A stretch of DNA of 64,000 nt from Candidatus Sumerlaeia bacterium (GTDB taxonomy: Bacteria; Sumerlaeota; Sumerlaeia; MVZB01): the NCBI GenBank assembly GCA_039683515.1, contig JBDKRG010000059.1, positions 38,615 through 102,614 of the forward strand. The letters run 5' to 3'. Below are positions 14,893 through 60,670 of the stretch, one piece after another. The stretch's first letter is position 1; every line of letters starts with the position of its first letter. The position numbers and the translations under genes were made by a program. A model generated the notes under the pieces. It ran no database searches. It saw only the letters and a list, made by a program, of their open reading frames with translations, and was not told the DNA's origin.

Positions 14893-15000
14893 GGCGGCTT
14901 GTTTCCTGGCCGGGGGGCTTAAGTCGGGGACCCGGGATGTCGATGCATATCGATGAGGGCAATCATGTCCCCACTTCTCCAGGCCGAGGTCCGCTTGCCC

Positions 15001-17556
15001 ATGCGCATGAACACGAACTACCGCGGTTGGATGTCCGCGATCCTTCCCCTGATCCTGATGTGCGTCGCGGCGCCTTCATTTGCAATCCCGCCACTCCTCC
15101 AGATCGACCTGAACGGCCCGGCATCCGGAACCGACGTGACCGTGACGTTTACCGAGGACGCCGGCGAAGCCCTGCTGTGCCCGGCCGCCGTCATCGCCGA
15201 CGCCAGCACGACCATGACCGAACTCCTGCTGACGATGACCCCGCACCCGGAGAACCTTGCCGAAGCCCTCCATGCCGTGCCGCGCGACGGGCTGGCCGTC
15301 ACGTACAACTCGGGCAACGGCGAAATGCTGATCAACGGCACGGCGTCCGCGAGCAATTACCAGGAAGTCCTGCGCTCGCTGACCTACGGGAACGCGTCGA
15401 ACACCCCGACCGTGACGACGCGCGTCGTGACGGCCGTCGCCAAGACCGGCACGTATCAAAGCAACCAGTGCACGATCCAGATCAACATCGTCCCGACCAA
15501 CGACCCGCCGGTCATCGACCTGAACGGGACGTCCTCGGGCGTCAACCGGGCGTTCGCGTTCGACGAGGGCGCCGGCGCGCTCCCGATCGCACCGGCCGGC
15601 ACCGTCACCGATCCCGACAGCGGCCAGCTGACGTCGATGACGCTGGCGCTGTCTTCGCACCCGGACGGGGGCGCCGAGACCATCGCCGCCACCGGCGGCG
15701 GCGGGGTGACGGCCGCCTACGACCCGTCCACCGGCGTCATGCGGCTGAGCGGGACGGCGCAAATCAGCGCCTACCAGGCCGTCCTTCAGACGGCGACGTA
15801 CAACAACACGGCGACGCCCCCCGACCCGACCACGCGCACGCTGACGGTCACGGGGTGGGACACCGGCGGGCGCGGCGGCTCGGCGTTCGCCAGGATCTCG
15901 ATCCATCCCAGGAACTACGCGCCGACGGCGATCGCCCCGACCGGCCTGACTCTGGCCGAAGGGACCGCGATCGGCACCACCGTCGCCAGCCTGCAGGCCT
16001 CGGACCCCAACGTGGGCGACACGCACACCTACGCGTTCGTGGCGCCGTTCGGCAACGGCGCGGGGCGGTTCTCGCTCAGCGGCAACCAGCTCCGGGTCGC
16101 CAAGGCGCTCGACTACGAAACCTCGAGCTCGGCGATGCTTTCCATCAAGTCGACCGACAAGGGGGGCTTGAGCTGCGCGCAGAACATCGCCGTGGCCATC
16201 CTGAACGTCAACGAGACGCCGACGAACATCAACCTGGCGCCGGTGAGCCTTTACAAGGACGCCGTCGCGACGGAAACGATCGTCGGCACGCTCACCGCCT
16301 CCGACCCGGACGCCAACCAGAAATTCACCTACACGTTCTGCTCGCCGTATAGCGACAACGGCGGGCGGTTCAAGATGTACAGCAACCAGGTGCGCGTCGC
16401 GAAGGCCACGCTCCTGCGGTCCGAGTCCCAGAGCAGCTACCCGATCTCGGTGCGCGTGACCGACCAGGGCGGGCTGAATTTCTCGAAGAATTTCACGATC
16501 GAGCTCCCGCCCAACCCCAACGCGCCGGTCATCGACCTCAACGGCACGGACGCCGGCCTCGACCGGTCCGTCACGTTCACCGAGGGGGGCTCGGCCGTGA
16601 AGATCGCGCCGGCCGCGGCGATCACCGACATGAACGGCACGCAGCTGACGTCGATGACGCTGGCGCTTTCGACCCACCCCGGCGGGACGTCCGAAACGCT
16701 GACCGCCACCGCAAGCGGCGGCGTGACGGCTTCCTACAACACCTCGACCGGCGTCATGAAGCTGAGCGGCAAGGCCTCGCTGTCGAGCTACCAGACCGTC
16801 CTCCGCACCGTCGCCTACAACAACACGACCGCCCTGCCCGACCCGACCACGCGCACGCTGACCGTGACCGGCTGGGACACCGAGGGGCTCGGCGGCGTGG
16901 CGGCGGCCAGGATCGCGATCGTGCAGATCAACCGCAAGCCGACGCGCGTGACGCCGGACAAGATGACGGTCGCGGAAAACTCGCCGGTCGGGACCGTGGT
17001 CGGGACGTTCTCGACGGTCGACCCGAACCGGCTCGACACGCACACATACTCATTCGCCTCGCCGAACTACAATGCGGCCGGGAAATTCTCGCTCTCCGGC
17101 AATACGCTCAAGGTCGCCGGCGCGCTCAACCACGAGGCGCTGACGACCGCGACGCTCTCGATCAAGTCGACCGACAACCGCGGCCTGAGCTGCACGACGA
17201 CCGTGCGGGTGGGGCTCCTCGATGTCAACGAGCCGCCGGCCAACATCGACCTCGAGATGGTGGCGATCAACAAATCCATGATCGCCGCCGACACGCTCGT
17301 CGGCACGCTCATCGGCACCGACCCGGACGCTGGCGATACGCTCTCGTACACGCTGACCAGCGACGACGGCGGGCGGTTCAAGCTCGCCGGCAACACGCTG
17401 CGCATCGCGGACGCGACGCTCATCAAGGCCGACTCGCGGACGTCCTACACGATCACGGCCCGCGTCGCCGACGGCAGCGGCCTGTCGATCACGAGGGATT
17501 TCACGTTCACGATCCCCCGAACAACGGCCGCGCGCGGCTGGACGCTGCTGCGGTAA
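15001..17556 (+). CDS. large secreted cadherin-like repeat protein
   Basis: Signal peptide MRMNTNYRGWMSAILPLILMCVAAPSFA. Repeated ~100-aa modules with cadherin-like signatures (PVIDLNGT...DPD..., TLTVTGWDTGG..). The 515-aa and 655-aa ORFs overlapping it are alternate-frame artefacts. Confidence 0.65.
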   Translation: MRMNTNYRGWMSAILPLILMCVAAPSFAIPPLLQIDLNGPASGTDVTVTFTEDAGEALLCPAAVIADASTTMTELLLTMTPHPENLAEALHAVPRDGLAVTYNSGNGEMLINGTASASNYQEVLRSLTYGNASNTPTVTTRVVTAVAKTGTYQSNQCTIQINIVPTNDPPVIDLNGTSSGVNRAFAFDEGAGALPIAPAGTVTDPDSGQLTSMTLALSSHPDGGAETIAATGGGGVTAAYDPSTGVMRLSGTAQISAYQAVLQTATYNNTATPPDPTTRTLTVTGWDTGGRGGSAFARISIHPRNYAPTAIAPTGLTLAEGTAIGTTVASLQASDPNVGDTHTYAFVAPFGNGAGRFSLSGNQLRVAKALDYETSSSAMLSIKSTDKGGLSCAQNIAVAILNVNETPTNINLAPVSLYKDAVATETIVGTLTASDPDANQKFTYTFCSPYSDNGGRFKMYSNQVRVAKATLLRSESQSSYPISVRVTDQGGLNFSKNFTIELPPNPNAPVIDLNGTDAGLDRSVTFTEGGSAVKIAPAAAITDMNGTQLTSMTLALSTHPGGTSETLTATASGGVTASYNTSTGVMKLSGKASLSSYQTVLRTVAYNNTTALPDPTTRTLTVTGWDTEGLGGVAAARIAIVQINRKPTRVTPDKMTVAENSPVGTVVGTFSTVDPNRLDTHTYSFASPNYNAAGKFSLSGNTLKVAGALNHEALTTATLSIKSTDNRGLSCTTTVRVGLLDVNEPPANIDLEMVAINKSMIAADTLVGTLIGTDPDAGDTLSYTLTSDDGGRFKLAGNTLRIADATLIKADSRTSYTITARVADGSGLSITRDFTFTIPRTTAARGWTLLR

Positions 17557-17774: not shown

Positions 17775-19061
17775 TCAGCGCCAGGCGATGACTTTTTCCT
17801 CGGAGAGGCACTGGGTCTCCCACTGGAAGTCGGGGCGCGTCGCGCACCGGAACTTGCCCATGAAATCGCCGCGCACACCGCCGGTGTCGTTGACGTGGAA
17901 GTGCAGGACCTCGTCCTCGCGCGTCGACCGGTCGTAGTTTTCCTTCCACAGCTCGACGGAGACGCTGTGGCGGCCGGCGTTCAGGAAATTGCCGGGCACG
18001 TTGACCCACGTCCTGTACAGCCCCTCGGGCTTGATCTTCGTGTGCCACTCGTCGTTGTTGCTGATCGAGCTGAAGACCAGCGTGCTGTCCTCGTTCCAGA
18101 CGTGGGCGGTCGCGCCGGCGCGGATCCCCGCGCGCGTGACCCAGTATTCGATCGCGATCCGGAACGGCTCCTCGATGCGGATGTCGCCGTCGATCCGGCC
18201 GTCCTTGTCGTAGACGCAGACGCGGTGCAGCCGGAGGGTGCGGTCGCCGGGGGCGCGCGCCGGGTCCTCCCAGACGCGCTCGGGGCGGTCGTCGTGCTGG
18301 TCGCCGCCGAGGTAGCGGCTGACGACGTCGTTGACCTCGCCGTCCACGGCGAGGCCGCCGCCCTCGAGCATCACGGCCCGCTGGCACAGGTTGCGCACGG
18401 CGACCATGTTGTGGCTGACGAAGATGACCGTGCGGCCGTCGCGCGCCACGCTGTTCATCTTGCCGAGGCACTTCTTCTGGAACGCGGCGTCGCCGACGGC
18501 GAGGACCTCGTCGATCAGGAGGATTTCGGGCTCGAGGTGCGCCGCGACGGCGAACGCCAGGCGCACGTACATGCCCGAGCTGTAGCGCTTGACCGGCGTG
18601 TCGAGGAAGCGCTCGACCTCGGCGAAGGCGACGATCTCGTCGAACTTGCTCTTGATCTCGCGGCGCGTCATGCCGAGGATCGCGCCGTTGAGCATGATGT
18701 TTTCCCGGCCGCTCAGCTCGGGGTGGAAGCCCGTGCCGACCTCGAGAAGGCTCGCCACGCGGCCGCGCAGCCGCACCTCGCCCTCGGTCGGCTCGGTGAT
18801 CTGGCTGAGGAGCTTGAGGAGCGTCGACTTGCCGGCGCCGTTGCGGCCGATGAGCGCGACCGCCGTCCCCTCTTCGACCTCGAACGAAACGTGGCGCAGC
18901 GCCCAGAAGTCGCGCTCGTCCTTTTTCTCGCCCGCGGTGCCGCGGCGCAGCAGGGCGTTCACGCCATCGGCGATCTTGTCGCGCAGCGTGTCGTGACGGA
19001 GCGTGCCGCCGAGCTTGTAAAGCTTGCCCAGGTCGTGAATGGAGATGGCGGGGCGACTCAT
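17775..19061 (-). CDS. wzt: polysaccharide ABC exporter ATP-binding protein (Wzt/TagH type with C-terminal carbohydrate-binding-like domain)
   Basis: Walker A GRNGAGKST, signature YSSGM, Walker B LLIDE, plus a ~180-aa C-terminal extension. Immediately downstream of the wzm permease. Confidence 0.85.
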   Translation of the reverse strand: MSRPAISIHDLGKLYKLGGTLRHDTLRDKIADGVNALLRRGTAGEKKDERDFWALRHVSFEVEEGTAVALIGRNGAGKSTLLKLLSQITEPTEGEVRLRGRVASLLEVGTGFHPELSGRENIMLNGAILGMTRREIKSKFDEIVAFAEVERFLDTPVKRYSSGMYVRLAFAVAAHLEPEILLIDEVLAVGDAAFQKKCLGKMNSVARDGRTVIFVSHNMVAVRNLCQRAVMLEGGGLAVDGEVNDVVSRYLGGDQHDDRPERVWEDPARAPGDRTLRLHRVCVYDKDGRIDGDIRIEEPFRIAIEYWVTRAGIRAGATAHVWNEDSTLVFSSISNNDEWHTKIKPEGLYRTWVNVPGNFLNAGRHSVSVELWKENYDRSTREDEVLHFHVNDTGGVRGDFMGKFRCATRPDFQWETQCLSEEKVIAWR

Positions 19062-19074
19062 GCGGGAACTCCGG

Positions 19075-19968
19075 TCAGATCACGTCGGCGAACGAGCGCT
19101 CGAATTGGCGGAAATAGTAGGCGCCGCTGACAAGCAGCGCGACGGTGACGAACAGGCTGGCCAGCATCCCCGGCCAGAAAATCGCGAATTGCGGGTCGAC
19201 CTGCGGCCCGAGGATCGCCCAGCGGAAGCCGTCGATCGGGCCGACGACAGGGTTGAGGCTGAACACCAGCCGCCACGTCAGCCACCCGGGCGCCCACGCG
19301 GCGACGGCGCGCGTGGCGTGGCCGGCCATCTGGCCGCTGGTCAGCATCACCGGGCAGACGAAGATCCCGATCCGGATGATGAACGGCACGATGTGCTTGA
19401 TGTCGCGATACTTGACGTTGAGCGCGGCCAGCCACAGGCTCGCGCCGAACGCCGACGCGAACGCCATCAGGAAGAACAGCGGCAGGGCCAGCATCCGCGC
19501 GCCGAACGCCACGTCGTAATGAACCATCAGCACCATCATCATGAGCATGGAGATCAGGAAGTCGACGAGGCCGCTGAGCGTGGCCGACGCCGGGATGATC
19601 AGACGCGGGAAATAGATCTTGCTGATCATCTGCGACGACATCACGACCGACTGGCTCCCGGCCTGCAGGGCGCTGGAGAAGAACGACCACGGCAGCAGCC
19701 CGGCGAACGCGATGATCGCATACGGCCCCTTGACGTCCACTTTCACGATTCGGCTGAAGATCCAGGTGAAGACGATGACGGTGAGGAGCGGCTGCACGAC
19801 GGCCCAGGCGATGCCGATGGCCGTCTGCTTGTAGCGGACCATGATGTCGCGCCAGGTGAGGAAACCGAACAGCTCGCGGTAGCGCCACAGCTCCGCGTAA
19901 TCGATGCCGATCAGCCCGCGCCGGGGCTTGATGATCCGTTCCTTGAACTGAGTGGCCGTCTCGGCCAT
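19075..19968 (-). CDS. wzm: ABC-2 type polysaccharide exporter permease
   Basis: 297 aa with six TM segments. ABC-2 family pattern. 13-nt gap to wzt. Confidence 0.85.
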   Translation of the reverse strand: MAETATQFKERIIKPRRGLIGIDYAELWRYRELFGFLTWRDIMVRYKQTAIGIAWAVVQPLLTVIVFTWIFSRIVKVDVKGPYAIIAFAGLLPWSFFSSALQAGSQSVVMSSQMISKIYFPRLIIPASATLSGLVDFLISMLMMMVLMVHYDVAFGARMLALPLFFLMAFASAFGASLWLAALNVKYRDIKHIVPFIIRIGIFVCPVMLTSGQMAGHATRAVAAWAPGWLTWRLVFSLNPVVGPIDGFRWAILGPQVDPQFAIFWPGMLASLFVTVALLVSGAYYFRQFERSFADVI

Positions 19969-33167: not shown

Positions 33168-34946
33168 ATGAAGCCGATCGTCATCGCCGAACAAATCCGC
33201 AAAAAGTATTCCCTGCATGCCGACGCCAACCGGCATTACGGCGTGGCCGACCTGTTCCGCGAGCTGACCGGCCGGCGCTCGTCCAACGCGCTGCGCCCGG
33301 ACGAGTTCTGGGCGGTCGACGGCATCTCGTTCTACCTCAACCCCGGCGACTCGATCGCGCTGGTCGGCCGCAACGGCTCGGGCAAGAGCACCATGCTCAA
33401 GCTCCTGGCCGGCCTCATCAAGCCCGACGACGGCGTGATCCAGATCAACGGCCGCGTCCAGGGGCTCATCAACCTGGGCGCCGGGTTCAGCCCGCGCCTT
33501 TCCGGGCGCGAGAACATCATGAACGGGGCGGCGCTCATGGGCCTCAGCCGCAAGCGCACCCTCGCGATCATGGACGAGATCGTCGACTTCGCCGAGTTGG
33601 GCGAGTTCATCGACAGCCCGGTCTCGACCTACAGCTCCGGCATGTATGCGCGCCTCGGCTTCTCGGTCGCCGTCCACCTCGACCCGCAGATCCTCCTCAT
33701 CGACGAGATCCTGTCGGTCGGCGACTTCGCGTTCCAGAACAAGTGCTTCGTCAAGATGCACGAGATCAAGAAGCGCGGCGCCACGATCGTCCTCGTCTCG
33801 CACAGCTTCACGCACGTCAACCAGATCTGCGACCAGGCGCTGTGGCTCGACCGCGGCCGGCTCGTCCAGGCCGGCGCCGCCGGCGACGTCACCAAGGCCT
33901 ACATGGAGCACCTCGAGGCCCGGCAGGTCGACGAGCTCAAGCGCCTGAACGAGGCCCAGGCCGGCCCCTCGACCAGCCGCACGCTCCAGGGCCTGTACGG
34001 CCCCATTTACGACGAGTTCGACAAGATCTCCGACCTGGAGTTCTCGTTCAGCTCCGGCGGCGGCGAGACCGACGTCGTCCGCACCCACGACGAGCTCCAG
34101 ATCGAATACCGCTTCACGCTCAACCAGCCCGTCACCGACCTGAACGTCTCGCTCGTCTTCATCCGCAAGGACGGCCTGTGGATGACGGCGATCTCGACGC
34201 TCAACGGCGACCTGGTCAGGGAAATCCACGACGGCCAGGTCCACTGCCGCGTGCGCATCGCCGACTGCCACCTGAACCCCGGCAACTACGTCCTCGTCAT
34301 GCCCGTGCACGAGGGCAAGAGCTACCTGTGGCGCAACATCGTCAAGGAGTTCGTCGTGGTGAGCCGCGAGCGGTTCACGTGGCACCTGACCGATTTCGAT
34401 TACTCCTACGAGGTCCTCAACGGCTCGACCGAGGGCCCGCTCCTGACCGAGCACAGTGAAGCCGCGCCGAAGCACGCGGCGGATGCGTCGACCAGCCCCA
34501 ACGACTCGGTCCGGCCGCTACATTTCCCGTACGAATACTCGATGGGCACGCTGCGGATGCGGCCGGCGGGCTCGACCGTCTGGGAATGGGAAGACCTCGG
34601 CGAGGCGATCGGCCGGGTGTTCGCCCCGAGGGACAAAGAACTGCTCCTGGTCGTCGGCGCGGACGCGGCCGGCCGGCTCTTCGGCCTGAGCCGACTGGCC
34701 CCGGACGACCTGTTCGGGCTGCACCTGGCGCGCACGCCCGTCCGCGACCAGGACCTGGCGCACCTGGCCCGCTTCACCGGCCTGCGCACGCTCGAGCTGC
34801 GCCACACCGAGATTACCGACCGCGCCCTCGAATCGCTCGCGCCGCTGAGGAGCTTGAAAACGCTGGCGCTTCCGGCCACCATCAGCGAGAAGGCCATGAA
34901 CCGGTTGCGTGAAACGCTCCCAGGCTGCACATTGATTCAGAACTGA
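33168..34946 (+). CDS. orphan Wzt-like polysaccharide ABC exporter ATPase with C-terminal jelly-roll-like domain and LRR-like tail module
   Basis: Walker A GRNGSGKST, YSSGM, Walker B LLIDE. Residues ~250-440 form a Wzt-C-like domain. The C-terminal ~140 aa (…WEWEDLGEAIG…LRTLELRHTEITD…LKTLALPATISEKAMNRLRETLPGC) is repeated twice in the glycosyltransferase at 38484. No adjacent wzm permease. Confidence 0.8.
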   Translation: MKPIVIAEQIRKKYSLHADANRHYGVADLFRELTGRRSSNALRPDEFWAVDGISFYLNPGDSIALVGRNGSGKSTMLKLLAGLIKPDDGVIQINGRVQGLINLGAGFSPRLSGRENIMNGAALMGLSRKRTLAIMDEIVDFAELGEFIDSPVSTYSSGMYARLGFSVAVHLDPQILLIDEILSVGDFAFQNKCFVKMHEIKKRGATIVLVSHSFTHVNQICDQALWLDRGRLVQAGAAGDVTKAYMEHLEARQVDELKRLNEAQAGPSTSRTLQGLYGPIYDEFDKISDLEFSFSSGGGETDVVRTHDELQIEYRFTLNQPVTDLNVSLVFIRKDGLWMTAISTLNGDLVREIHDGQVHCRVRIADCHLNPGNYVLVMPVHEGKSYLWRNIVKEFVVVSRERFTWHLTDFDYSYEVLNGSTEGPLLTEHSEAAPKHAADASTSPNDSVRPLHFPYEYSMGTLRMRPAGSTVWEWEDLGEAIGRVFAPRDKELLLVVGADAAGRLFGLSRLAPDDLFGLHLARTPVRDQDLAHLARFTGLRTLELRHTEITDRALESLAPLRSLKTLALPATISEKAMNRLRETLPGCTLIQN

Positions 34947-34963
34947 ACGGGAACCGGCACGAG

Positions 34964-37900
34964 ATGAGCCAACTCACCAGCTCAATGCGAAAGATTGCCG
35001 GCCGCGCCCTGTCCCTCCACCCGGCGCTGGCGCGCCTCGCCGCGCGCATCGCCATCGACGACCGCCTCATCCCGTACCTGTTCGGCGACCCGCGCCTGCC
35101 GCTGCGGCTGAGCCTCGACGCTTCGCTGATGCGCGAGTTCCTCGCGCTGGCCGGCGACGACCGGCTGCTGGGCGCGATCCTCGACGAGCCGCTCCTGGGC
35201 GAGCGCATTTACCTGAGCGAGCCCGCGCTGCGCCAGCTCCGGTCCAACCCGCGCGTCCAGCATTTCCTCCTGCTCGACGACCAGGTCCTGCGATACGTCT
35301 GCAAGTCCAAGGAAGCCGCCGCGAAGCTCGCGGTCCATGCCGGCCTGCGCGAGCTGCTTCTGGCCGAGCAGCCGTTCCGGGAATGGGCGGCCCGAAACGA
35401 ACACGTTCTCCAGCTGATCCTCGGCCGCGAGGACATCGTCGAGAAATTCATCGCCGCGGACGGCCTCCTCGCGCGCATCGTCCGCCACCCGGCGCTGTTC
35501 GAGGGCGTCATCGCGGATAAGGATGTCCTCGCGCGCATCGTCCGTGACGAGCGCGTGGTCCGGCGCGGCCTCGCCGAGCCGTCGTGGCCCGCGATGGCGA
35601 CGGCCGAGTTGCTCAAGCGGTTCTCCGCCGACCCATCGATCCTCGATTCGATCATCAACGATGAATCCGTTGCCGACCGCTCGTACGCGAGCGAGCCGAT
35701 CCGCCGCCGCATTCACGCCGATATCCCCCTGTTTCTCGAAATCGCGAACTCCGGTTCAGGTCTTGCCGCGATCTCGGCCGACCGGCCACTCCTCCTCCGC
35801 ATCTTGAATGAGGCCGGCATCGAGGCGATCTTGGCGCATCCGGTGTTGCTCGATCGCGTCCTCGCCGACCCGCGCGCCTTCGACCGGATCCTGGGTCACG
35901 CCGGCCTCATCGCCCAACTGCTCCGGAACGAAACGGTCATCGATCAGCTTTTGGCGGACGATGAGCTGCTCCACAAGTTGCTTTCGAACGACGCGGCGTG
36001 GACGGCTCTGTTTGGCGATGATCTCTTCATCGATCGCATGATCGGCAACGGGCGCGTCTTCGAAAAAATCATCGCCGACGATCGGCTGCTTGCACGGCTT
36101 GTCGCGCACGACCGCGCCTTCGACAAGATCCTCGCCGACGACCGACTCCTGGCCCAACTCGTCGCGCATGATCGCGCATTCGCTCGCATCATCGCGAACG
36201 ACCGGCTCCTCGCCCGGCTCGTGGCCCATGACCGGGCGTTCGAGAAGATCGTCGCGAACGAACAACTCCTGTCGCGCCTGATCGCCGACGAACGCGCATT
36301 CGATATCATGATCGCCAACGACCGGCTCCTCGCCCGGCTCGTGGCCCACAATCGGGCGTTCGAGAAGATCGTCGCGAACGAACAGCTCCTGGCGCGCCTG
36401 ATCGCCGACGACCGCGCGTTCGGCCTCATCATCGCAAACGACCGACTGCTCGCCAAAGTCATCGATCACGACCGCGCATTCGGCGTCATCGTTGCCCATG
36501 ACGCGTTGCTGGTCAAAATCGTCGGCAACGAACGCGCATTCGAAAAGATTGCCGCGAACGAACGGCTCCTGGCGCGCCTGATCGCCGACGACCGCGCATT
36601 CGATATCATGATCGCAAACGACCGGCTTCTCGCCCGCCTGATCGCCCATGACCGCGCGTTCGGTTTCATCGTTGCTCATGACGCGTTGCTGGTTCAAATC
36701 GTCGGCAACGAACGCGCGTTCGAAAAGATTGCCGCGAACGAACAGCTCCTGGCGCGCCTGATCGCCGACGACCGCGCATTCGAAAAAATCACCGCCAACG
36801 AGCGGCTCCTGGCGCGGCTCGTCTCCGATCGCCGCGCCTTCGGCAAGATCCTCGACGACGAACAACTGCTCGCAAAGGTCGTCGCAAACGACCGGGCATT
36901 CGGCAAAATTCTCGCCGACGATCAGCTCCTCGCAAAACTCCTCTCGAACGAGCGCGCCTTCGGCCTTGTCATCGCCGACGGCCAACTCGTCTCGAGGCTT
37001 GTCTCGCATGAGGGCGCTTTCGATAAAATCATCGACGACGAACGACTCCTGGCCCGCATCATCCTCAGCGACCGCGCGTTCAATGCCATCGTCGCCGACG
37101 GCAATCTGCTTTCGCGCATCGTTTCCGACGAGCGCGCATTCGGCTTCATCCTCGCCGACGATCAGCTCATTGCGCGCGTCGTCTTGCATGATCGAGCCTT
37201 CGGCTTCATCGTCTCGAACGAACCGCTGCTCGACCGGCTCCTCGCGCACGCCCGCGCCTTCGAAGGAATCCTGTCGGATGACCGGCTCCTGGCCCGCGTC
37301 GTCACGAACGAGCGCGCGTTCGATCAAATCGTCGCCGATGAAAATCTCTTCAAGCGCCTTGTCGCGAACGAGCGGGCGCTCAAGGTGATTTTCGCCAACG
37401 AGTCGCTCTCCAAACGCATGTTCACCCACCCGAAGACCTCGGACTGGGTCAGGCAGACCCCGTCCATCTTCAGCCGGGTGGTCCTCAACGAGCAGGGCGC
37501 GCGCAAGATCATGACCAACCCGATCCTGGCGGCCAACCGGCCGATCGGCGGGCTCATGGAGGCGCACGCCGAATTCGACCGGATCTGGCTCGAAATCCAG
37601 CCGCACGTCGATTCGTCGCGGCCCGGGTTCGACGACCGCCTCCAGGAGGCGCTGAAAAAGCTCACGAAAATCGAGGACGTCCAGAGGACGCTGCTCGACA
37701 TCATTTGCGACGGCAACCGCGCGTATCTGAACGGCGCGACGATCGCGTTTACCGACCGGTTCTCGTTCTGGACCGAGCTCAACGAGATCATGCTCGACGA
37801 GGATTATTACTTCGAGACCGACGCCGCCAAGCCGCGCATCCTCGACTGCGGCACGAACTTCGGCCTCGCGATCTATTACTTCAAGCGTCTCTACCCGTCG

Positions 37901-38440
37901 GCCCGCGTGACAGGGTTCGAGCCCGTCCCGTCGCTCTGCCGGATGGCCCGCGCCAACGTGCGCGACAATGGCTTTAAAAACGTCAGGATCCACAAATACG
38001 CCGTCGCCGCGCAGCCCGGCCGCAAAAGATTCTACGAATCGAAATCATTCCCGATGGCGGGCTCGCTCACCGCGCGCCGGGTCGAGTTCGGCGACGATGT
38101 CGCCGAGATCAAGGTCGAATGCAGGCCGCTGAGCGAGTTCCTGGAGGAGCCGGTCCATTTCCTCAAGCTCGACATCGAGGGCTCGGAGGACTCGGTCCTG
38201 GCCGAGGCCGCCGCGCGGCTGCCGATGGTCCACAACATGTTCATCGAATACCACCACGGCGCGGGCGCTCCGGACGGCCGCCTCACCACCATCCTGCAAC
38301 TGCTCGACCGCTCCGGTTTCGACTGGCAGATCGGCAAGTCGTTCCACTTCGGCCGCCAGTCGCGCCGCCGCGCGCTCAGTTTCGCCGGCCGGCCCTTCAG
38401 CCTCAACATCTGGGCAAAGAACCGAGCACTCAACGACTGA
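34964..38440 (+). CDS. giant 20-residue tandem-repeat protein fused to C-terminal FkbM-family methyltransferase
   Basis: 1158 aa. At least ~25 clear units of consensus DRAFxKIxANxxLLARLIAD (60-nt DNA period) plus degenerate units. The C-terminal ~250 aa carry FkbM-type methyltransferase motifs (ILDCGTNFG…, FLKLDIEGSE). Confidence 0.75.
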   Translation: MSQLTSSMRKIAGRALSLHPALARLAARIAIDDRLIPYLFGDPRLPLRLSLDASLMREFLALAGDDRLLGAILDEPLLGERIYLSEPALRQLRSNPRVQHFLLLDDQVLRYVCKSKEAAAKLAVHAGLRELLLAEQPFREWAARNEHVLQLILGREDIVEKFIAADGLLARIVRHPALFEGVIADKDVLARIVRDERVVRRGLAEPSWPAMATAELLKRFSADPSILDSIINDESVADRSYASEPIRRRIHADIPLFLEIANSGSGLAAISADRPLLLRILNEAGIEAILAHPVLLDRVLADPRAFDRILGHAGLIAQLLRNETVIDQLLADDELLHKLLSNDAAWTALFGDDLFIDRMIGNGRVFEKIIADDRLLARLVAHDRAFDKILADDRLLAQLVAHDRAFARIIANDRLLARLVAHDRAFEKIVANEQLLSRLIADERAFDIMIANDRLLARLVAHNRAFEKIVANEQLLARLIADDRAFGLIIANDRLLAKVIDHDRAFGVIVAHDALLVKIVGNERAFEKIAANERLLARLIADDRAFDIMIANDRLLARLIAHDRAFGFIVAHDALLVQIVGNERAFEKIAANEQLLARLIADDRAFEKITANERLLARLVSDRRAFGKILDDEQLLAKVVANDRAFGKILADDQLLAKLLSNERAFGLVIADGQLVSRLVSHEGAFDKIIDDERLLARIILSDRAFNAIVADGNLLSRIVSDERAFGFILADDQLIARVVLHDRAFGFIVSNEPLLDRLLAHARAFEGILSDDRLLARVVTNERAFDQIVADENLFKRLVANERALKVIFANESLSKRMFTHPKTSDWVRQTPSIFSRVVLNEQGARKIMTNPILAANRPIGGLMEAHAEFDRIWLEIQPHVDSSRPGFDDRLQEALKKLTKIEDVQRTLLDIICDGNRAYLNGATIAFTDRFSFWTELNEIMLDEDYYFETDAAKPRILDCGTNFGLAIYYFKRLYPSARVTGFEPVPSLCRMARANVRDNGFKNVRIHKYAVAAQPGRKRFYESKSFPMAGSLTARRVEFGDDVAEIKVECRPLSEFLEEPVHFLKLDIEGSEDSVLAEAAARLPMVHNMFIEYHHGAGAPDGRLTTILQLLDRSGFDWQIGKSFHFGRQSRRRALSFAGRPFSLNIWAKNRALND
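35790..37440 (+). repeat. coding 60-bp tandem repeat array (120-bp near-identical super-units in places)
   Basis: For example, 36290-36410 nearly duplicates 36170-36290. The repeats also keep the antisense frame open (track ORF 35756..37993 minus), which I treat as an artefact. Confidence 0.85.
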
Positions 38441-38483
38441 CGGATTTTATTCATCACTCCTCATTCATCTTTAGGAATTTAAA

Positions 38484-41432
38484 ATGCCGATTGTCTGGAC
38501 CAAGAACTTCCCCGCGAGCGAACGCCCCCTCGGATACCTGCGCCTCCTGCTGGCCCGCTACCGCTACCATAACCGGCTCGTCCCGACGCTGCGCGGCGGC
38601 CTGCCCGCCGTGCGCGAAGTCCCCGGCTACAAGGCCGTCCTCAAAAGCTGGCGCAACAAGCACCGCGGCCGGCGAGCGTTCGTCATCGGCAACGGCCCGA
38701 GCCTCAACCGCATGGACCTCTCGCCGCTCCGGGACGAAATCACGATCGGCTGCAACGCGATCTACAAAAACTTCGCCCAGTGGGGGTGGCATACCGACTA
38801 CCTCCTCTTCGAGGACATCGAGCAGACCGAGCTGCGCCGCAAGGACATCCCCGGCGTCAAGGGCCCGATGAAGCTCCTCGGCCTGCACAACGCCTACGCG
38901 ATCAAGGCCGACGCCGACACGTTCTTCATGAACGTCCGCAACCTCGACGCGGCCTTTATGGACGAACAGTTTCCGCAGTTTTCCAAGGATTTCGGCCACA
39001 TCGTCCACCTTGCGAGCACGGTCACCCACATCGGCCTTCAGCTGGCCTGGCACCTCGGGTGCGACCCCGTCTACCTGATCGGCGTCGACCACAACTACGG
39101 CGAGCTGCCGCGCCTCTACCCGCCGTGCAAGATCACGATCACCGAGGACAACTACGACCTCGTCCGCGGCATCCACGTCCAGGACGACTACTACAAGATC
39201 GGCGACGTGATCGGCGTCCCGCCGGTCGACTACATGGAGGCCGGCTACCGCAAGGCGCGCGAGGCGTTCGAGGAGGACGGCCGCCGGGTCATCAACGCCG
39301 GCCTCGACAGCAAGCTCGAGGTCTTCGAGAAGGCCGAATTCGCCGCGCTGTTCACAAAGCCCGAGCCAAGCCCGAAGGATGCGGACGGAAAACCGAAGGT
39401 CCTGTTCATCACCCACGACGTCGGCCGGCTCGGCGCGCAGATGTCGCTGCTGGGGCTGATCCGGCGGCTGCGCGCCACGCACGGCTTCGATTGCCGCGTC
39501 CTCGTCCGCGAGCCCAACGGCACGCTCATGGGCGAATTCAAAAAACTCGGCGAGACGGACGTCTTCTGGCCCGCCGACGCCCCGCGCACGATCGGCGGTC
39601 ACCAGAAGGCGATCCTCGACAAGACGCGCGCATGGGCGCCCGACCTCATTTACTCCAACACCGCCGTCAACGGCGACGTCACCGAATACCTCGGCTCGAT
39701 CGCCCCGGTCGTCGTTCACGTGCACGAGCTCGAGTGGTACCTGAAGACGCTCGACGAGCCGCGCCACCGCGCGCTTGTCAGCCAGCCGGCGCTTTACATC
39801 GCGTGCTCGGACGCGGTCAGGCGAAACCTCGTCGCGAACCACTCGATCCCCGTTGGCAAGATCGAAGTCATGTACGAGTCGATCGACTTCGACGACGTGC
39901 GCGGCAAAACGAACGCCGTCCCGCGCGAGGAAATCCGCCGCAAGCTCGGTATTCCGGCCGACGCCGTCGTCGTCGGCAATTGCGGCCGCATCGACGAGCG
40001 CAAGGGCTGGGACCTGTTCGTCGACATCGCCGAGCGCGTGATCAAGGCCAACGACAATGTTTATTTCCTCTGGGTCGGCCACGGCCCCAACCACGCCGAC
40101 CTCATCAAGGCCGCCGAGGCGCGCGGCATCGCCGACCGCGTCAAGGCGCCCGGCCCGCAGGAGAACCCGTTCCCGTACTTCAACTCGATGGACATCGCTC
40201 TCGTGACTTCGCGCGACGACCCGTTCCCGCTGGTCGTCATGGAAGCGGCGTTCCACGGCTGCCCGGTCTGCGCGTTCGCGTCCTCCGGCGGGGCGTGCGA
40301 GTTCATCGGTTCCGATCGCGGATTGACCGTGCCCGAGGTCGACGCCGCCGCGATGGCCGCGCAGATCGACCGGCTCGTGCGCGACGCGGAACTGCGCAAA
40401 AAGCTCGGCGAAAACGCGCGCCGCGCCGCGATGGGCTACGACACCGAGCCGATCGCCAGGCGCCTCATGCAAATCCTCGGCGATCGCTTCGGATTCGGCT
40501 CGCTCAGTCCATCTCGTCCGCAATCCGATGCTTCACGCATCCTTTCGTTCCCGTCGCGCGCGGTCGGCAAGCTGCAAATCCGCGACGCCGGCTCGCGCGT
40601 CTGGTCGTGGCGCGACCTCGCACCGGCCGCCGGCCACGTCGAGGTCCCGCCGGGCCAGGAAGTCCTCTTCCTGCTCGACCGCGACGCCGCGTCCGACGTC
40701 TCGTTCTTCAGCGCCCTGGAGCCCGACGCGATCCAGTCGATGTTCCTCGGCCGCACGCAATTGAACGACCGCCAGATCGAAAACGTCGCGCGCATGAGCG
40801 GCCTCTTGACGCTCGACCTGCGCGAGACGCCGATCACCGACACAAGCGCCGGCCACCTCGCCAGGCTGACCGCGCTCAAGTCGCTCGTCCTCCCGTCGCA
40901 GATCACCGAGGCCGCCGTCGCGCGCCTCAAGACCGCCCTGCCCAATTGCAACGTCACGCGCGCCGACGGCCCGCCGACGCTCGCGCAGGCGCAGCCCGGC
41001 GGCCGGCGCACCGTCACGTTCCCGGAGAAATCCGTCGGCTTGCTCATGACCCGGCCGTGGGGCCTGACGGTGTGGAACTGGAACGAGCTCGGCTCGGCGA
41101 AGGGAGAGGTGGCCGTCCCGCCGCGCAGCGAGCTGATGCTGGTCGTCAGCCGCGGCTGCGCGAATGATTTAGGTTTTTTGGACCAATTAAATCCCGATGA
41201 CATCCAGTCGATCCACATGCGCCAGGCGGCGATCGGCGACGATCAATTGAAGCGCCTCGCGCGCCTGACCGGCCTGCGCACGCTCGACCTGCGCGACAGC
41301 AAGATCACCGACGCCGGCACGCAACAACTGAAGTCGCTACTCAATTTGAAACTGTTGAACCTGCCAGATCAAATCACGGCCAATGTAAGAGCGGACCTCA
41401 AGAAATCCCTGCGTGATTGCAGAATCAACTAA
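38484..41432 (+). CDS. multidomain glycosyltransferase: DUF115 (Maf/CstII-like, GNGPS motif) + GT4 glycosyltransferase + two LRR-like tail modules
   Basis: N-terminus …RAFVIGNGPSLN… (DUF115 / motility-associated-factor / sialyltransferase-like). Middle: GT-B family-4 motifs (…GNCGRIDERKGWDLF…, EAAFHGCPV…). C-terminal 290 aa hold two copies of the module shared with the Wzt-like ATPase. Confidence 0.7.
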   Translation: MPIVWTKNFPASERPLGYLRLLLARYRYHNRLVPTLRGGLPAVREVPGYKAVLKSWRNKHRGRRAFVIGNGPSLNRMDLSPLRDEITIGCNAIYKNFAQWGWHTDYLLFEDIEQTELRRKDIPGVKGPMKLLGLHNAYAIKADADTFFMNVRNLDAAFMDEQFPQFSKDFGHIVHLASTVTHIGLQLAWHLGCDPVYLIGVDHNYGELPRLYPPCKITITEDNYDLVRGIHVQDDYYKIGDVIGVPPVDYMEAGYRKAREAFEEDGRRVINAGLDSKLEVFEKAEFAALFTKPEPSPKDADGKPKVLFITHDVGRLGAQMSLLGLIRRLRATHGFDCRVLVREPNGTLMGEFKKLGETDVFWPADAPRTIGGHQKAILDKTRAWAPDLIYSNTAVNGDVTEYLGSIAPVVVHVHELEWYLKTLDEPRHRALVSQPALYIACSDAVRRNLVANHSIPVGKIEVMYESIDFDDVRGKTNAVPREEIRRKLGIPADAVVVGNCGRIDERKGWDLFVDIAERVIKANDNVYFLWVGHGPNHADLIKAAEARGIADRVKAPGPQENPFPYFNSMDIALVTSRDDPFPLVVMEAAFHGCPVCAFASSGGACEFIGSDRGLTVPEVDAAAMAAQIDRLVRDAELRKKLGENARRAAMGYDTEPIARRLMQILGDRFGFGSLSPSRPQSDASRILSFPSRAVGKLQIRDAGSRVWSWRDLAPAAGHVEVPPGQEVLFLLDRDAASDVSFFSALEPDAIQSMFLGRTQLNDRQIENVARMSGLLTLDLRETPITDTSAGHLARLTALKSLVLPSQITEAAVARLKTALPNCNVTRADGPPTLAQAQPGGRRTVTFPEKSVGLLMTRPWGLTVWNWNELGSAKGEVAVPPRSELMLVVSRGCANDLGFLDQLNPDDIQSIHMRQAAIGDDQLKRLARLTGLRTLDLRDSKITDAGTQQLKSLLNLKLLNLPDQITANVRADLKKSLRDCRIN

Positions 41433-59278: not shown

Positions 59279-59965
59279 ATGACTATATCAGATTCAACAG
59301 AATCGCTGAAAAGTCATCCTGGTTTTGGAGGAGCGTTGCTCGCCGATAGCGCGACACAAACAGATACTGGGAAAGTTAATCTCCAAGGAATATTCACAAT
59401 GTTCTTGGCTTGGGGTTTTCCATGCTCAAGAACATGGTTTCTGACATTTACAGCATTTGATGTGCCCAACTACGACACATCGGTCAGTATTGGTGTGCGG
59501 AAAGCCGGATCGAGTTCAATTTCAAAACTGTCTAACGTGAAGGTTTCAGAGGGAAGTAAAGGTCCTTCCACTGTTAGTGTTCAGTTAAGGCATCGTTTCA
59601 ATTCGGCAGGAAGATATGAATTAGTGTGTACATTTCGTAAATCAGTAAAAAAATTGAGGATCCCGTTTGAAGTGCGGTGTAGAGAGTGGCCAGAGTTCTC
59701 AGAGGAAGAAATTGCTTTCTCACGTAAAGATTCTCATATCCCAATGAGAATTCGAGCCAATGTCCAATGCAAAAAATGCTCACATGCCTATATCTTTGAA
59801 GAGGCAGTCTTACAACAGAAATCGAAGGGGGGCATTCAGCGATTTCCCACTAACGGTCGATTTAAATGTGAGGAATGTGGTCATACAATGAATTTGCTAG
59901 ATATCCAAGGGCAAATGAGAGCCTCTCTAAAAGAACTTGTGCGCAATGCCATGAAAAAGGACTGA
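59279..59965 (+). CDS. hypothetical protein with C-terminal CxxC…CxxC zinc-ribbon (islet gene A)
   Basis: 228 aa. Beta-rich N-terminal ~160 aa, then CKKCSHAY…(29 aa)…CEECGHT. AT-rich codon usage unlike the flanking genes. Confidence 0.55.
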   Translation: MTISDSTESLKSHPGFGGALLADSATQTDTGKVNLQGIFTMFLAWGFPCSRTWFLTFTAFDVPNYDTSVSIGVRKAGSSSISKLSNVKVSEGSKGPSTVSVQLRHRFNSAGRYELVCTFRKSVKKLRIPFEVRCREWPEFSEEEIAFSRKDSHIPMRIRANVQCKKCSHAYIFEEAVLQQKSKGGIQRFPTNGRFKCEECGHTMNLLDIQGQMRASLKELVRNAMKKD

Positions 59966-59968
59966 GTC

Positions 59969-60670
59969 ATGTTCAGTCCATACCACAAACTCACGAATTG
60001 TCCACGGTTGGAAAGGCATATAGCAACGCTTAGGGCAGCGGGGAATGTTGCCGACGATGTGTTTCAAAATCACAATCGCTATCACTATGCACTGATACAT
60101 AAATTGAAATGTGCCCGAACCAGTTTTGACCGTCTCCAAAATGAGCTCACGGATACTTCGCCAGAGCAAATTGTGAGCGATTCAGGAGAGTTTCTATACT
60201 CGATCAATGCGTGCATCGATAGTTTCTTCTACACGAGCGGTAGCGCGATGGATATCTTAGCCAGGGAAGTCCTCACCTATTTTTCAATTGCGATGCCTAA
60301 TAAAGTCTACTATAGAACAGCTCGAGAAGAACTCACAACTCATCGACCTGGTGACGTTTTGATTTCAAAGCTTGCAGACCCTACATGGAAGAGCGAGTTT
60401 TCCAACTACAGAAACGCTTTAACACATGAGGTCCTTATTGCCGGTGTCTTTTCGATAAATTTTGTGATGGATGGAGCAACACAACGCAAGACAATCGTTT
60501 TCCCTCTCCCAGATGATCCTCGAACTGATCCTCAGGCGAGAACCTTCAGGCAGAATAAAGATGTTCAACTTTACTGTGATCGAACCTTACGCAGATTGTT
60601 GTCATTGATCAACACGATCTATGGTGATCTGTGTTCTCGAATTCAATCGAACCAATCCCTTCCTCTTTAA
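59969..60670 (+). CDS. hypothetical alpha-helical protein with R-x4-H motif (possible HEPN-like; islet gene B)
   Basis: 233 aa. Start is 3 nt after the gene A stop. YRNALTHEV matches the minimal HEPN Rx4-6H signature. No family recognised with confidence. Confidence 0.5.
   Translation: MFSPYHKLTNCPRLERHIATLRAAGNVADDVFQNHNRYHYALIHKLKCARTSFDRLQNELTDTSPEQIVSDSGEFLYSINACIDSFFYTSGSAMDILAREVLTYFSIAMPNKVYYRTAREELTTHRPGDVLISKLADPTWKSEFSNYRNALTHEVLIAGVFSINFVMDGATQRKTIVFPLPDDPRTDPQARTFRQNKDVQLYCDRTLRRLLSLINTIYGDLCSRIQSNQSLPL

What the first reader, a model, noticed from the sequence alone, without database searches (positions are those of the whole stretch)
33168..41432. Shared ~140-aa LRR-like tail module on an orphan Wzt-like ATPase (1 copy) and a DUF115-GT4 glycosyltransferase (2 copies)
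The module G.L.MRP.G..VW.W.DLG.A.G.V.PR..ELLLVV…L..L.PDD…L..LRTL.LR.T.ITD…L..L..LK.L.LP..I…….L….LP.C ends the ABC ATPase (33168..34946). It occurs twice in tandem at the end of the glycosyltransferase (38484..41432). The ATPase has no partner permease nearby, while a complete wzm/wzt pair lies at 17775-19968. A transporter ATPase and a polymerising glycosyltransferase sharing a docking-type module suggests a physically coupled synthesis-export (or synthesis-termination) complex organised around the giant repeat protein between them. I do not recognise this architecture.
Basis: partly seen in the sequence, partly recalled or inferred. Interest (0 to 1): 0.6.

Follow-up and report, generated by a model that had tools for sequence, protein, structure and literature searches.

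The report
LRR docking tails on glycan-assembly enzymes
In an uncultured Sumerlaeia bacterium, a three-gene surface-polysaccharide cassette carries the same small leucine-rich-repeat protein-binding domain on both its export ATPase and its sugar-polymerising enzyme, which may be how the parts are held together, although no binding has been tested.

Summary

The cassette matches the known polymerase-terminator-exporter scheme of ABC-transporter-dependent glycan assembly. A tail-less Sumerlaeota relative has wzm-wzt followed by a homologue of the middle protein. The middle protein is an alpha-solenoid of 20-aa repeats, not a coiled coil, and ends in an FkbM methyltransferase. Its repeat number differs between relatives (814, 897, 1158 and 1345 aa).

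No permease lies in the cassette. The wzm/wzt pair at 17775-19968 belongs to another lineage.

Physical coupling through the tails is plausible but untested. I rate it a new variant of a known kind, of moderate interest.

The parts
33168..34946 (+). Wzt-type ABC ATPase. NBD aa 1-250, Wzt_C carbohydrate-binding module aa 289-401 (nt 34032-34370), low-complexity linker aa 402-447, LRR tail aa 448-592.
   Evidence: Pfam ABC_tran 69.5 bits and Wzt_C 42.3 bits against a cut-off of 30.4. Best solved relative is Aquifex Wzt with CBM (8dku/7k2t), E 5e-59, aligned over aa 45-384. It is 55-63% identical to canonical 420-445-aa Wzt proteins over 70% of its length.
34509..34943 (+). LRR tail copy on the ATPase (145 aa).
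   Evidence: BLASTP E 1e-30 to 1e-36 against the two glycosyltransferase copies. AF2 pLDDT 94, LRR fold. 72% identical to the orthologous tails, dN/dS 0.27-0.30.
34964..38440 (+). Repeat protein. A conserved N-terminal ~100 aa, an alpha-solenoid of 9-residue helices (aa ~100-830) and a C-terminal FkbM methyltransferase (aa 959-1119, nt 37838-38320).
   Evidence: Pfam Methyltransf_21 58 bits and NCBIfam TIGR01444 88 bits. AF2 predicts ~73 short helices with a 10-aa period, pLDDT 75-91 in the regular array. Orthologues are 814 and 897 aa long; a distant homologue of 1345 aa lies directly after wzm-wzt in L019.
36044..37423 (+). Regular array of 23 gapless 20-aa units (aa 361-820), consensus A-x-D-R-A-F-x-K-I-V-A-N-D-R-L-L-A-R-L-V.
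   Evidence: Unit table and HMM counts: 23 units here, about 9 in L016 and about 4 in L002. TRF finds periods of 60/120/180 nt at 67-87% matches.
34964..35263 (+). N-terminal 100 aa of the repeat protein, a candidate docking or anchoring region (inferred).
   Evidence: 70-74% of columns are invariant among the three orthologues, more than in the FkbM domain at 52-66%. dN/dS is 0.20-0.30. AF2 confidence is low, pLDDT 30-45.
38484..41432 (+). Two-module glycosyltransferase. MptE-like/DUF115 aa 55-205 (nt 38646-39098), GT4 aa 317-647 (nt 39432-40424), then two LRR tails.
   Evidence: Pfam MptE-like 38.1 bits (cut-off 34.6), Glycos_transf_1 97 bits, Glyco_transf_4 43 bits. Residues 322-826 (GT4 + tail 1) are 41% identical to the 527-aa GT4-plus-tail protein P0192, E 5e-133.
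40533..40964 (+). LRR tail copy 1 on the glycosyltransferase.
   Evidence: dN/dS 0.25-0.38.
41004..41429 (+). LRR tail copy 2 on the glycosyltransferase, separated from copy 1 by a 13-residue Pro/Gly/Ala/Gln-rich linker (aa 828-840).
   Evidence: dN/dS 0.20-0.29.
17775..19968 (-). Separate wzt (17775-19061) and wzm (19075-19968) pair. It is the only ABC-2 permease in the window, so a possible but unproven partner.
   Evidence: Pfam ABC_tran and ABC2_membrane. The two Wzt NBDs are 44% identical. This Wzm is 23% identical to the L019 Wzm, and this Wzt is 37.5% identical to the L019 Wzt, against 55% for the tailed Wzt.

Best explanation
**What is shown**
- Genes 33168-41432 are three tightly spaced, co-oriented genes (gaps of 17 and 43 nt) in a Candidatus Sumerlaeia genome.
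- They encode (i) a Wzt-type ABC ATPase with a Wzt_C carbohydrate-binding module, (ii) a long alpha-solenoid protein ending in an FkbM methyltransferase, and (iii) a DUF115+GT4 glycosyltransferase.
- The ATPase carries one copy, and the glycosyltransferase two copies, of a compact 143-aa LRR domain on flexible linkers.

**What is inferred from the characterised ABC-transporter-dependent pathway**
- The glycosyltransferase polymerises a lipid-linked glycan in the cytoplasm.
- The methyltransferase caps its non-reducing end.
- The Wzt module recognises the cap and, with a Wzm encoded elsewhere, exports only finished chains.
- The solenoid, whose repeat number differs between relatives, serves as the spacer or ruler that a coiled coil provides in WbdD and WbbB.

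**What is inferred and untested**
- The LRR tails are cytoplasmic protein-protein docking domains that hold polymerase and exporter ATPase in one complex.
- The most plausible contact is the strongly conserved N-terminal ~100 aa, or the repeats, of the solenoid protein.
- The same kind of tail recruits tailoring enzymes (sulfotransferase, methyltransferase, GT4, WcbI) in glycan loci of other lineages.
For: **The module**
- The copies are joined to the enzymes and to each other by low-complexity linkers, which can be read directly in the sequences.
- The tails are kept in all three syntenic genomes at 65-74% identity with dN/dS 0.20-0.38, similar to GT4 and FkbM.

**Recurrence on glycan enzymes**
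- Among the best 150 of 829 N-cap hits, nine proteins combine a compact C-terminal tail with a non-LRR body. Seven of them have a glycan-enzyme domain: Wzt, DUF115-GT4, GT4, two sulfotransferases, a SAM methyltransferase and WcbI.
- Twelve such tails align over 146 columns with only terminal and single-residue gaps.
- In the related loci L004, L018 and L006, the same slot between a TPR-GT gene and a GT4 gene holds a sulfotransferase-tail or a methyltransferase-tail.

**The pathway**
- The Wzt is closest to solved O-antigen Wzt with CBM.
- The tail-less Sumerlaeota cluster L019/L020 reads GT4 - wzm - wzt (55% identical) - 1345-aa solenoid+FkbM homologue (E 1.6e-129) - GTs.
- The published model covers the polymerase, the terminator on an elongated ruler, recruitment of the polymerase, and CBM gating (PMC11231755).

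**The spacer**
- The solenoid is predicted with pLDDT 75-91.
- The length differences (1158, 897 and 814 aa) fall inside the repeat array, where orthologues are gapped, and the clean 20-aa units number 23, about 9 and about 4.
Against: - No interaction was computed or measured.
- No wzm lies in the cassette, and the only Wzm in the window is of another lineage, so export by this ATPase is assumed.
- The wider N-cap/LRR family is general-purpose: BlaR1 M56 in 14 of 42 proteins scanned, redoxins, TPR and Geobacter J-domain proteins.
- The glycan-enzyme tails are not a supported clade over their first 112 residues (bootstrap 1/100). The association therefore rests on architecture in a sample of 150 of the 829 hits.
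- The tail-less homologous cluster shows that the pathway does not need the tails.
- The FkbM part of the AF2 model is poor. Its substrate, and whether it terminates chains, are unknown.
- DUF115 is best known from Maf flagellin glycosyltransferases, so a protein acceptor is possible.
Confidence: 0.45

Rival explanations
1. The tails do bind a common partner, but it is not the solenoid protein. It could be an acceptor protein to be glycosylated, or a membrane or TPR scaffold. The tails would then act as targeting or substrate-recognition domains, as the TPR domain of FlmG does for flagellin.
For: - DUF115/MptE-like is the Maf flagellin glycosyltransferase domain.
- FlmG is a 596-aa TPR + GT-B enzyme whose repeat domain binds flagellin (PMC7591256).
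- L006 encodes a 589-aa TPR + GT protein immediately upstream of the methyltransferase-tail gene.
- L016 has a TPR/PMT_2 membrane protein directly upstream of the tailed wzt.
- In L004, L006 and L018 no 20-aa-repeat protein is visible beside the tailed enzyme.
Against: - A Wzt with a glycan-binding module, and a homologous wzm-wzt-solenoid cluster, point to polymer export rather than direct protein glycosylation.
- The TPR/PMT_2 gene is absent from the window and from L002.
- The contigs of the other loci are short, so partners may lie off-contig.
Confidence: 0.25
2. The tails have no joint role. An LRR-rich lineage has added a common, mobile LRR domain to several proteins independently, and each copy serves some unrelated or minor purpose such as stability, localisation or regulation.
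For: - The N-cap/LRR family is large (829 clusters at E<=1e-3) and sits on many unrelated proteins.
- There is no bootstrap support for a glycan-specific clade.
- The tail-less homologous cluster works with the same core genes.
Against: - Both non-solenoid proteins of the one cassette carry it, in all three genomes, under purifying selection.
- The same fixed 143-aa C-terminal form recurs on seven glycan enzymes, and not on any of the 25 most frequent families among 42 other long family members scanned.
- GT4+tail is an old unit: window GT aa 322-826 matches P0192 at 41% identity, E 5e-133.
Confidence: 0.18
3. The tailed Wzt-like ATPase no longer works in a transporter. Having lost its Wzm, it acts as a soluble, glycan-end-binding ATPase that is tethered by its LRR tail to the synthesis complex, for example as a checkpoint or release factor.
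For: - There is no wzm in the cassette in three genomes.
- The closest tail-less homologue has wzm immediately upstream.
- The window's only Wzm is of another lineage.
Against: - The NBD and Wzt_C are the best-conserved parts of the protein, with dN/dS 0.05-0.15 and 86-92% identity.
- The protein aligns along its length with transporter-forming Wzt.
- Only 64 kb of the genome was seen, so a cognate wzm may lie elsewhere.
- Scattered wzm/wzt genes are not unusual (my own knowledge).
Confidence: 0.1

Closest known systems
E. coli O9a / K. pneumoniae O3 system: WbdA polymerase, WbdD terminator and Wzm-Wzt (PMC11231755, PMC3482155)
   Same: - A multi-module GT polymerase.
- A methyltransferase-bearing terminator on an elongated spacer.
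- The polymerase recruited by protein-protein contact.
- A Wzt with a C-terminal carbohydrate-binding module that admits only capped chains.
   Different: - The spacer here is an alpha-solenoid of 20-aa repeats, not a coiled coil.
- The methyltransferase is FkbM-type and C-terminal, with no kinase domain found.
- LRR tails sit on Wzt and on the polymerase.
- There is no wzm in the operon.
- No function has been tested.
K. pneumoniae O12 WbbB and the O4/O7 systems (PMC11231755)
   Same: They show that catalytic modules are distributed variably between single and multi-module proteins that assemble into complexes, always with a ruler-bearing terminator.
   Different: All described rulers are coiled coils. 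None of the described components has an LRR domain: the literature searches found none.
Tail-less Sumerlaeota cluster in GCA_029553925.1 (L019/L020)
   Same: - A Wzt with Wzt_C, 55% identical.
- It is followed directly by a solenoid+FkbM homologue (29% identity over ~1200 aa, E 1.6e-129), and GT genes follow.
   Different: - It has wzm upstream of wzt.
- It has no LRR module anywhere in the locus.
- The GT functions are on separate proteins, and the solenoid protein is longer (1345 aa).
F-box LRR proteins (FBXL2, Skp2) and mitochondrial coupling factor B (fold only)
   Different: - There is no F-box.
- The N-terminal half is a beta-rich cap with the motif FPxxxSxGxL...W.W...G.A.G.V.VP, specific to a bacterial family.
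- Sequence identity is 17-29%.
Bacterial 'FPxDRSxG' N-cap / TDAGL-type LRR family (Planctomycetota, Geobacter and others)
   Same: The tail is a member. The N-half profile finds 829 clusters, nearly all followed by the same LRR type and LPxC cap.
   Different: Most members carry longer arrays and sit on BlaR1-M56 peptidases, redoxins, TPR or J-domain proteins. The compact tail has a fixed ~143-aa length and sits at the extreme C-terminus of cytoplasmic glycan enzymes.
Caulobacter FlmG (TPR + GT-B) (PMC7591256)
   Same: A repeat-type protein-binding domain is fused to a glycosyltransferase and confers partner specificity.
   Different: - The repeat is TPR, not LRR.
- The partner is the acceptor flagellin.
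- No transporter ATPase shares the domain.

Membership tests
Wzt (NBD of O-antigen-type ABC-2 exporter with CBM) | ABC nucleotide-binding domain of the Wzt/TagH type | tested here: met
   Pfam ABC_tran 69.5 bits. PDB 8dku/7k2t E 5e-59, TarH and TagH E 1e-57 to 1e-48. GRNGSGKST, YSSGM and LLIDE can be read in the sequence.
Wzt (NBD of O-antigen-type ABC-2 exporter with CBM) | C-terminal Wzt_C carbohydrate-binding module | tested here: met
   Pfam PF14524, 42.3 bits against a cut-off of 30.4, aa 289-401. The alignment to Aquifex Wzt extends to aa 384.
Wzt (NBD of O-antigen-type ABC-2 exporter with CBM) | Cognate Wzm permease (normally adjacent) | tested here: not met
   No ABC2_membrane gene lies in or beside the cassette in the window, L002 or L016. 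tblastn with the L019 Wzm finds nothing in them. The rest of the genome was not available.
WbdD/WbbB-type chain terminator with molecular ruler | Terminating catalytic module (here a methyltransferase) | tested here: inconclusive
   The FkbM domain is present (Pfam 58 bits, TIGR01444 88 bits). Its substrate and any terminating activity were not testable.
WbdD/WbbB-type chain terminator with molecular ruler | Extended coiled-coil spacer | tested here: not met
   AF2 predicts about 73 nine-residue helices with a 10-aa period, an alpha-solenoid rather than long coiled-coil helices. The best fold matches are solenoids.
WbdD/WbbB-type chain terminator with molecular ruler | Spacer length sets glycan chain length | not testable with these tools
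   Only the variation in repeat number among relatives is seen: 814, 897, 1158 and 1345 aa.
Leucine-rich repeat domain | Curved solenoid of beta-strand/helix repeats with an LxxLxLxx core | tested here: met
Bacterial N-cap ('FPxDRSxG') LRR family | N-terminal ~75-aa beta-rich cap followed by TDAGL-type repeats and an LPxC cap | tested here: met
   The N-half profile finds 829 clusters. In the best 150 the cap is followed by LRRs.
Maf / DUF115 (MptE-like) glycosyltransferases | MptE-like/DUF115 domain | tested here: met
   Pfam PF01973, 38.1 bits against a cut-off of 34.6, aa 55-205.
Maf / DUF115 (MptE-like) glycosyltransferases | Flagellin acceptor and nonulosonic-acid donor | not tested
   No flagellin or nonulosonate-synthesis genes turned up among the window genes scanned. 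Absence in 64 kb is not decisive.
GT4 glycosyltransferases | GT-B fold with Glyco_transf_4 and Glycos_transf_1 halves | tested here: met
   Pfam 43.2 and 97.1 bits. PDB GT4 hits have E down to 8.5e-15.

The most novel reading that the evidence does not exclude
The compact LRR tail is a portable docking domain, comparable to a dockerin, for cytoplasmic glycan assembly lines. Polymerases, tailoring or terminating enzymes and even the exporter ATPase would plug through it into a repeat-protein scaffold. In this cassette the number of 20-aa solenoid repeats would set the glycan chain length, which would make it a second, non-coiled-coil kind of molecular ruler.
Probability: 0.2. Interest if true: 0.8.

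Novelty: new variant of a known kind. Interest (0 to 1): 0.55.

Why it matters
Work on ABC-transporter-dependent O-antigen assembly holds that polymerase, terminator and exporter act as a complex whose geometry sets chain length. The known contacts, however, are lineage-specific and the known rulers are all coiled coils (PMC11231755).

If the tails are docking domains, this cassette is a case where the contacts are marked by a recognisable, transferable domain on both the polymerase and the transporter ATPase. That would make the architecture of the complex predictable from sequence and testable by simple tail swaps.

The solenoid spacer, with a repeat number that varies naturally, would give a second and easily tuned ruler design. 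This could be useful for glyco-engineering.

If the tails turn out to be incidental, the finding reduces to an unusual domain fusion in an uncultured phylum.

Tried and rejected
- **Fourth copy in the window.** tblastn with the three modules found none.
- **Word-indexed homologue search with the whole module**. It returned only short generic LRR proteins (<=253 aa) and one fragment, and did not even return the window's own proteins. It cannot be used for domain neighbours.
- **Pattern scans of species genomes and metagenomes.**
  - The scans with the window's tails found nothing.
  - The alignment of 12 tails was too diverse to scan with.
  - The sulfotransferase/methyltransferase-tail alignment found only Geobacter J-domain LRR proteins in genomes and nothing in metagenomes.
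  - The window's own genome is evidently not in those collections.
- **Are the glycan-enzyme tails a clade?** A neighbour-joining tree on 146 aa groups all 12. That grouping depends on the C-terminal architecture: on the first 112 aa, bootstrap support is 1/100, with mean identity 0.40 within tails and 0.36 to generic members. I therefore do not claim monophyly.
- **P0232 as a GT2 fragment.** This was my reading of its sequence, and Pfam gives no support. I count it as unassigned.
- **Window wzm/wzt pair as cognate partner by descent.** Rejected on identity. A functional pairing remains possible.
- **Coiled-coil ruler.** Rejected by the AF2 secondary structure.
- **Technical failures.** Aligning 68 long proteins failed. 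The afdb50 fold library was unavailable. One bootstrap script timed out.
- **Promoter/terminator scan.** It gave nothing above shuffled expectation.
Full report
**The sequence.** The region holds three co-oriented ORFs with the codon bias of real genes, GC3 0.94, 0.85 and 0.90. They are 33168-34946 (592 aa), 34964-38440 (1158 aa) and 38484-41432 (982 aa), with gaps of 17 and 43 nt. The downstream gene is convergent.

Pfam assigns the following:
- ABC_tran and Wzt_C to the first ORF.
- An FkbM methyltransferase domain to the last 200 aa of the second. NCBIfam TIGR01444 confirms this at 88 bits.
- MptE-like (=DUF115), Glyco_transf_4 and Glycos_transf_1 to the third.

The organism is a Candidatus Sumerlaeia MAG, according to the source's name for the identical protein P0047. 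The flanks are thiamine-synthesis genes, an epimerase and a MerR-like gene on one side, and a TrmA-like methyltransferase and QueE on the other. The cassette is therefore an island among housekeeping genes.

**The shared module is real.**
- ATPase aa 448-592 and glycosyltransferase aa 684-827 and 841-982 are 41-43% identical over 141-145 aa. BLASTP E-values are 1.75e-36, 3.4e-30 and 1.0e-34. There is no fourth copy in the window.
- The three copies align almost without gaps, with 43 invariant columns.
- Each copy is joined to its enzyme, and the two glycosyltransferase copies to each other, by short Pro/Ser/Ala/Gly-rich stretches. These can be read directly in the sequences.

**What the module is.**
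- AlphaFold2 on an alignment of 12 such tails gives pLDDT 94 and pTM 0.88. The model has five N-terminal strands, then three to four strand-helix repeats and a final strand.
- The C-terminal half is the common 'TDAGL'-type bacterial LRR with an LPxC cap.
- A profile of the N-terminal 80 aa, searched against 1.84 billion representative proteins, finds 829 clusters at E<=1e-3 and 100 at E<=1e-10.
- In the best 150 this N-cap is nearly always followed by LRRs, usually in longer arrays and often several times per protein. The family consensus is FPxDRSxGxL...W..LG.A.G.V..PAGKEV.L.V.
- The wider family is general-purpose. Of 42 long members scanned, 14 carry BlaR1 M56 peptidase domains and 8 carry AhpC/redoxin domains; others have TPR, CarboxypepD_reg or Big_1. 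In Geobacter-group genomes it ends J-domain proteins, a reading I take from their HPD-type motif.

**The compact tail form.** Among the same 150 hits, nine proteins have a non-LRR body followed by the compact form: N-cap, two or three repeats and a cap, ~143 aa, at the extreme C-terminus. They are:
- the orthologues of the two window proteins;
- two sulfotransferases (P0176, P0183);
- a GT4 (P0192);
- a SAM methyltransferase (P0202);
- a WcbI capsule enzyme (P0267);
- two unassigned proteins (P0232, P0308).

Twelve such tails align over 146 columns with only terminal and single-residue gaps. None of the 25 most frequent families among the 42 other long members is a glycan enzyme.

Genomic context, where available, is always a multi-glycosyltransferase locus:
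- L005 has GT4-tail followed by another GT4.
- L004, L018 and L006 are versions of one locus: TPR+GT, then the tailed enzyme, then a 383-aa GT4, then a TPR-radical-SAM protein. The tailed slot holds a sulfotransferase in two of them and a methyltransferase in the third. The tails, plus about 40 aa before them, are conserved at 41-46% identity.
- Window glycosyltransferase residues 322-826 (GT4 + tail 1) are 41% identical to P0192 over 521 aa, E 5e-133, so GT4+tail is an old unit.

A caution applies. On the first 112 residues the glycan-enzyme tails are not a supported clade: bootstrap 1/100, with identity 0.40 within tails against 0.36 to generic members. The grouping in the full-length tree reflects shared architecture. 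The association is therefore one of architecture and context, seen in 150 of the 829 hits, and not a demonstrated subfamily.

**The cassette.**
- The ATPase is an ordinary O-antigen-type Wzt in sequence. It is 55-63% identical to canonical 420-445-aa Wzt proteins over its first 70%. Its best solved relative is the Aquifex Wzt with its carbohydrate-binding module, E 5e-59, aligned over aa 45-384.
- Only three close relatives (79-81% identical) also carry the tail. Other long Wzt proteins carry different C-terminal additions.
- Two syntenic genomes have the same three genes between the same flanks: GCA_032942435.1 (L002) and GCA_021372575.1 (L016). L016 has an extra TPR/PMT_2 membrane protein upstream.
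- Between these genomes the Wzt is ~80% identical and the glycosyltransferase ~75%, each with its tails. The middle protein is only 43-51% identical and is 814 or 897 aa long instead of 1158.
- dN/dS values:

| Region | dN/dS |
|---|---|
| Wzt_C | 0.05-0.13 |
| DUF115 | 0.07 |
| NBD | 0.14-0.15 |
| Tails | 0.20-0.38 |
| Solenoid N-terminal 100 aa | 0.20-0.30 |
| GT4 | 0.23-0.26 |
| FkbM | 0.27-0.28 |
| Solenoid (aa 101-350) | 0.38-0.47 |

**The middle protein.**
- Residues 361-820 are 23 units of exactly 20 aa with no indels. The DNA periods are 60/120/180 nt. L016 has about 9 clean units and L002 about 4, and the length differences fall in this array.
- AlphaFold2 predicts aa ~100-830 as about 73 nine-residue helices with a 10-aa period, at pLDDT 75-91 in the regular part. 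This is an alpha-solenoid, not a coiled coil.
- The best fold matches are the phage CDHS-1 receptor-binding protein and HEAT/ARM solenoids, with low TM-scores.
- The N-terminal 100 aa are the best-conserved part, with 70-74% invariant columns against 52-66% in the FkbM domain. They are modelled with low confidence.

**The decisive comparison.** Another Sumerlaeota genome, GCA_029553925.1, has a tail-less cluster (L019/L020). It reads GT4, wzm (275 aa), wzt (444 aa, NBD + Wzt_C, 55% identical to the window's), then a 1345-aa protein, then a 415-aa protein and two further GTs.
- The 1345-aa protein is homologous to the window's middle protein along ~1200 aa (29% identity, E 1.6e-129) and ends in an FkbM domain (Pfam 53 bits).
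- No LRR module occurs in that locus.
- A Wzt with CBM followed by a solenoid-FkbM protein is thus a conserved pair inside a standard ABC-transporter-dependent cluster. The window's cassette is a condensed derivative that lacks wzm and has gained tails on the ATPase and the glycosyltransferase.
- The window's own wzm/wzt pair (17775-19968) belongs to another lineage. Its Wzm is 23% identical to the L019 Wzm. Its Wzt is 37.5% identical to the L019 Wzt and 44% identical to the tailed Wzt in the NBD.

**Mechanism.** The published scheme for this pathway has four elements (PMC11231755; WbdD structure PMC3482155):
- multi-module GT polymerases;
- a terminator enzyme on an elongated coiled-coil ruler;
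- recruitment of the polymerase to the terminator protein;
- a Wzt carbohydrate-binding module that admits only capped chains.

By analogy I propose that the glycosyltransferase polymerises and the FkbM domain caps by methylation. The Wzt module would read the cap, and the solenoid would replace the coiled coil as spacer. The LRR tails would then be the recruitment devices. This rests on the fold's usual role, the flexible linkers, conservation, and recurrence on glycan enzymes. The conserved, low-confidence N-terminus of the solenoid protein is the most attractive contact.

**Rivals.**
- A different shared partner, for example an acceptor protein as with FlmG's TPR domain (PMC7591256), or a TPR or membrane scaffold.
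- Incidental LRR acquisition with no joint role.
- A Wzt that no longer transports.

**Novelty.** Full-text searches found no paper linking LRR domains with Wzt or with ABC-transporter-dependent assembly. No Pfam or NCBIfam model covers the tail or the 20-aa repeat. The pathway logic is known. The tails and the solenoid spacer are new variations on it.

Noticed in passing
L004 215-1768, L018 183-1715, L006 2969-5101: In three related metagenomic loci the same slot, between a TPR+GT gene and a 383-aa GT4 gene, is filled by a sulfotransferase-tail (L004, L018) or a methyltransferase-tail (L006). The enzyme body has been swapped while the LRR tail and about 40 aa before it are kept.
   Followed up: partly
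L019 11411-15448 (GCA_029553925.1): A 1345-aa solenoid+FkbM protein sits directly after wzm-wzt in a tail-less Sumerlaeota cluster. The solenoid-FkbM family seems to be a lineage-specific counterpart of coiled-coil terminators. Its precomputed annotation listed no Pfam hit, although a fresh scan finds FkbM.
   Followed up: partly
L016 6314-8044 (GCA_021372575.1): One of the three syntenic relatives has an extra 576-aa membrane protein (PMT_2-like N-terminus + TPR) inserted directly upstream of the tailed wzt. It has no counterpart in the window by tblastn.
   Followed up: partly
window 14953-17556 (+) next to 17775-19968 (-): The separate wzt/wzm pair has no glycosyltransferase neighbours. It lies tail to tail with an 867-aa protein containing cadherin domains, which may be a surface protein. 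The pair's Wzt has a ~170-aa C-terminal extension that does not match Wzt_C.
   Followed up: no
window 34964-38440; PDB 7qlr: The 20-aa repeat array matches the receptor-binding protein of C. difficile phage CDHS-1, weakly by sequence (E 1e-4) and best by fold (Foldseek E 7e-7). The TM-score is low, so the meaning is unclear.
   Followed up: no
window 59279-60670 and 60811-60897: Two low-GC ORFs (228 and 233 aa) in a stretch where the GC fraction falls to about 0.55, against about 0.65 elsewhere. They lie next to a tRNA-Leu(aag) gene and look like a small inserted island.
   Followed up: no
L008-L015 (Geobacter and Desulfuromonadales MAGs): A conserved ~440-aa protein family combines an N-terminal, apparently coiled-coil region, a J-domain-like segment (HPDL motif) and a C-terminal N-cap LRR domain of the same family as the tail.
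   Followed up: partly
window 35756-37993 (-) and other long antisense ORFs: Long ORFs on the opposite strand of the repeat gene (for example 745 aa) are by-products of high GC content and the repeats. They have the wrong codon-position GC pattern.
   Followed up: yes
P0070, P0084, P0111, P0116, P0127, P0162: Other unusually long Wzt proteins carry different additions: a second Wzt_C-like domain, an inserted domain between the NBD and Wzt_C, or other C-terminal domains. The Wzt C-terminus is evidently a frequent site of domain accretion.
   Followed up: no
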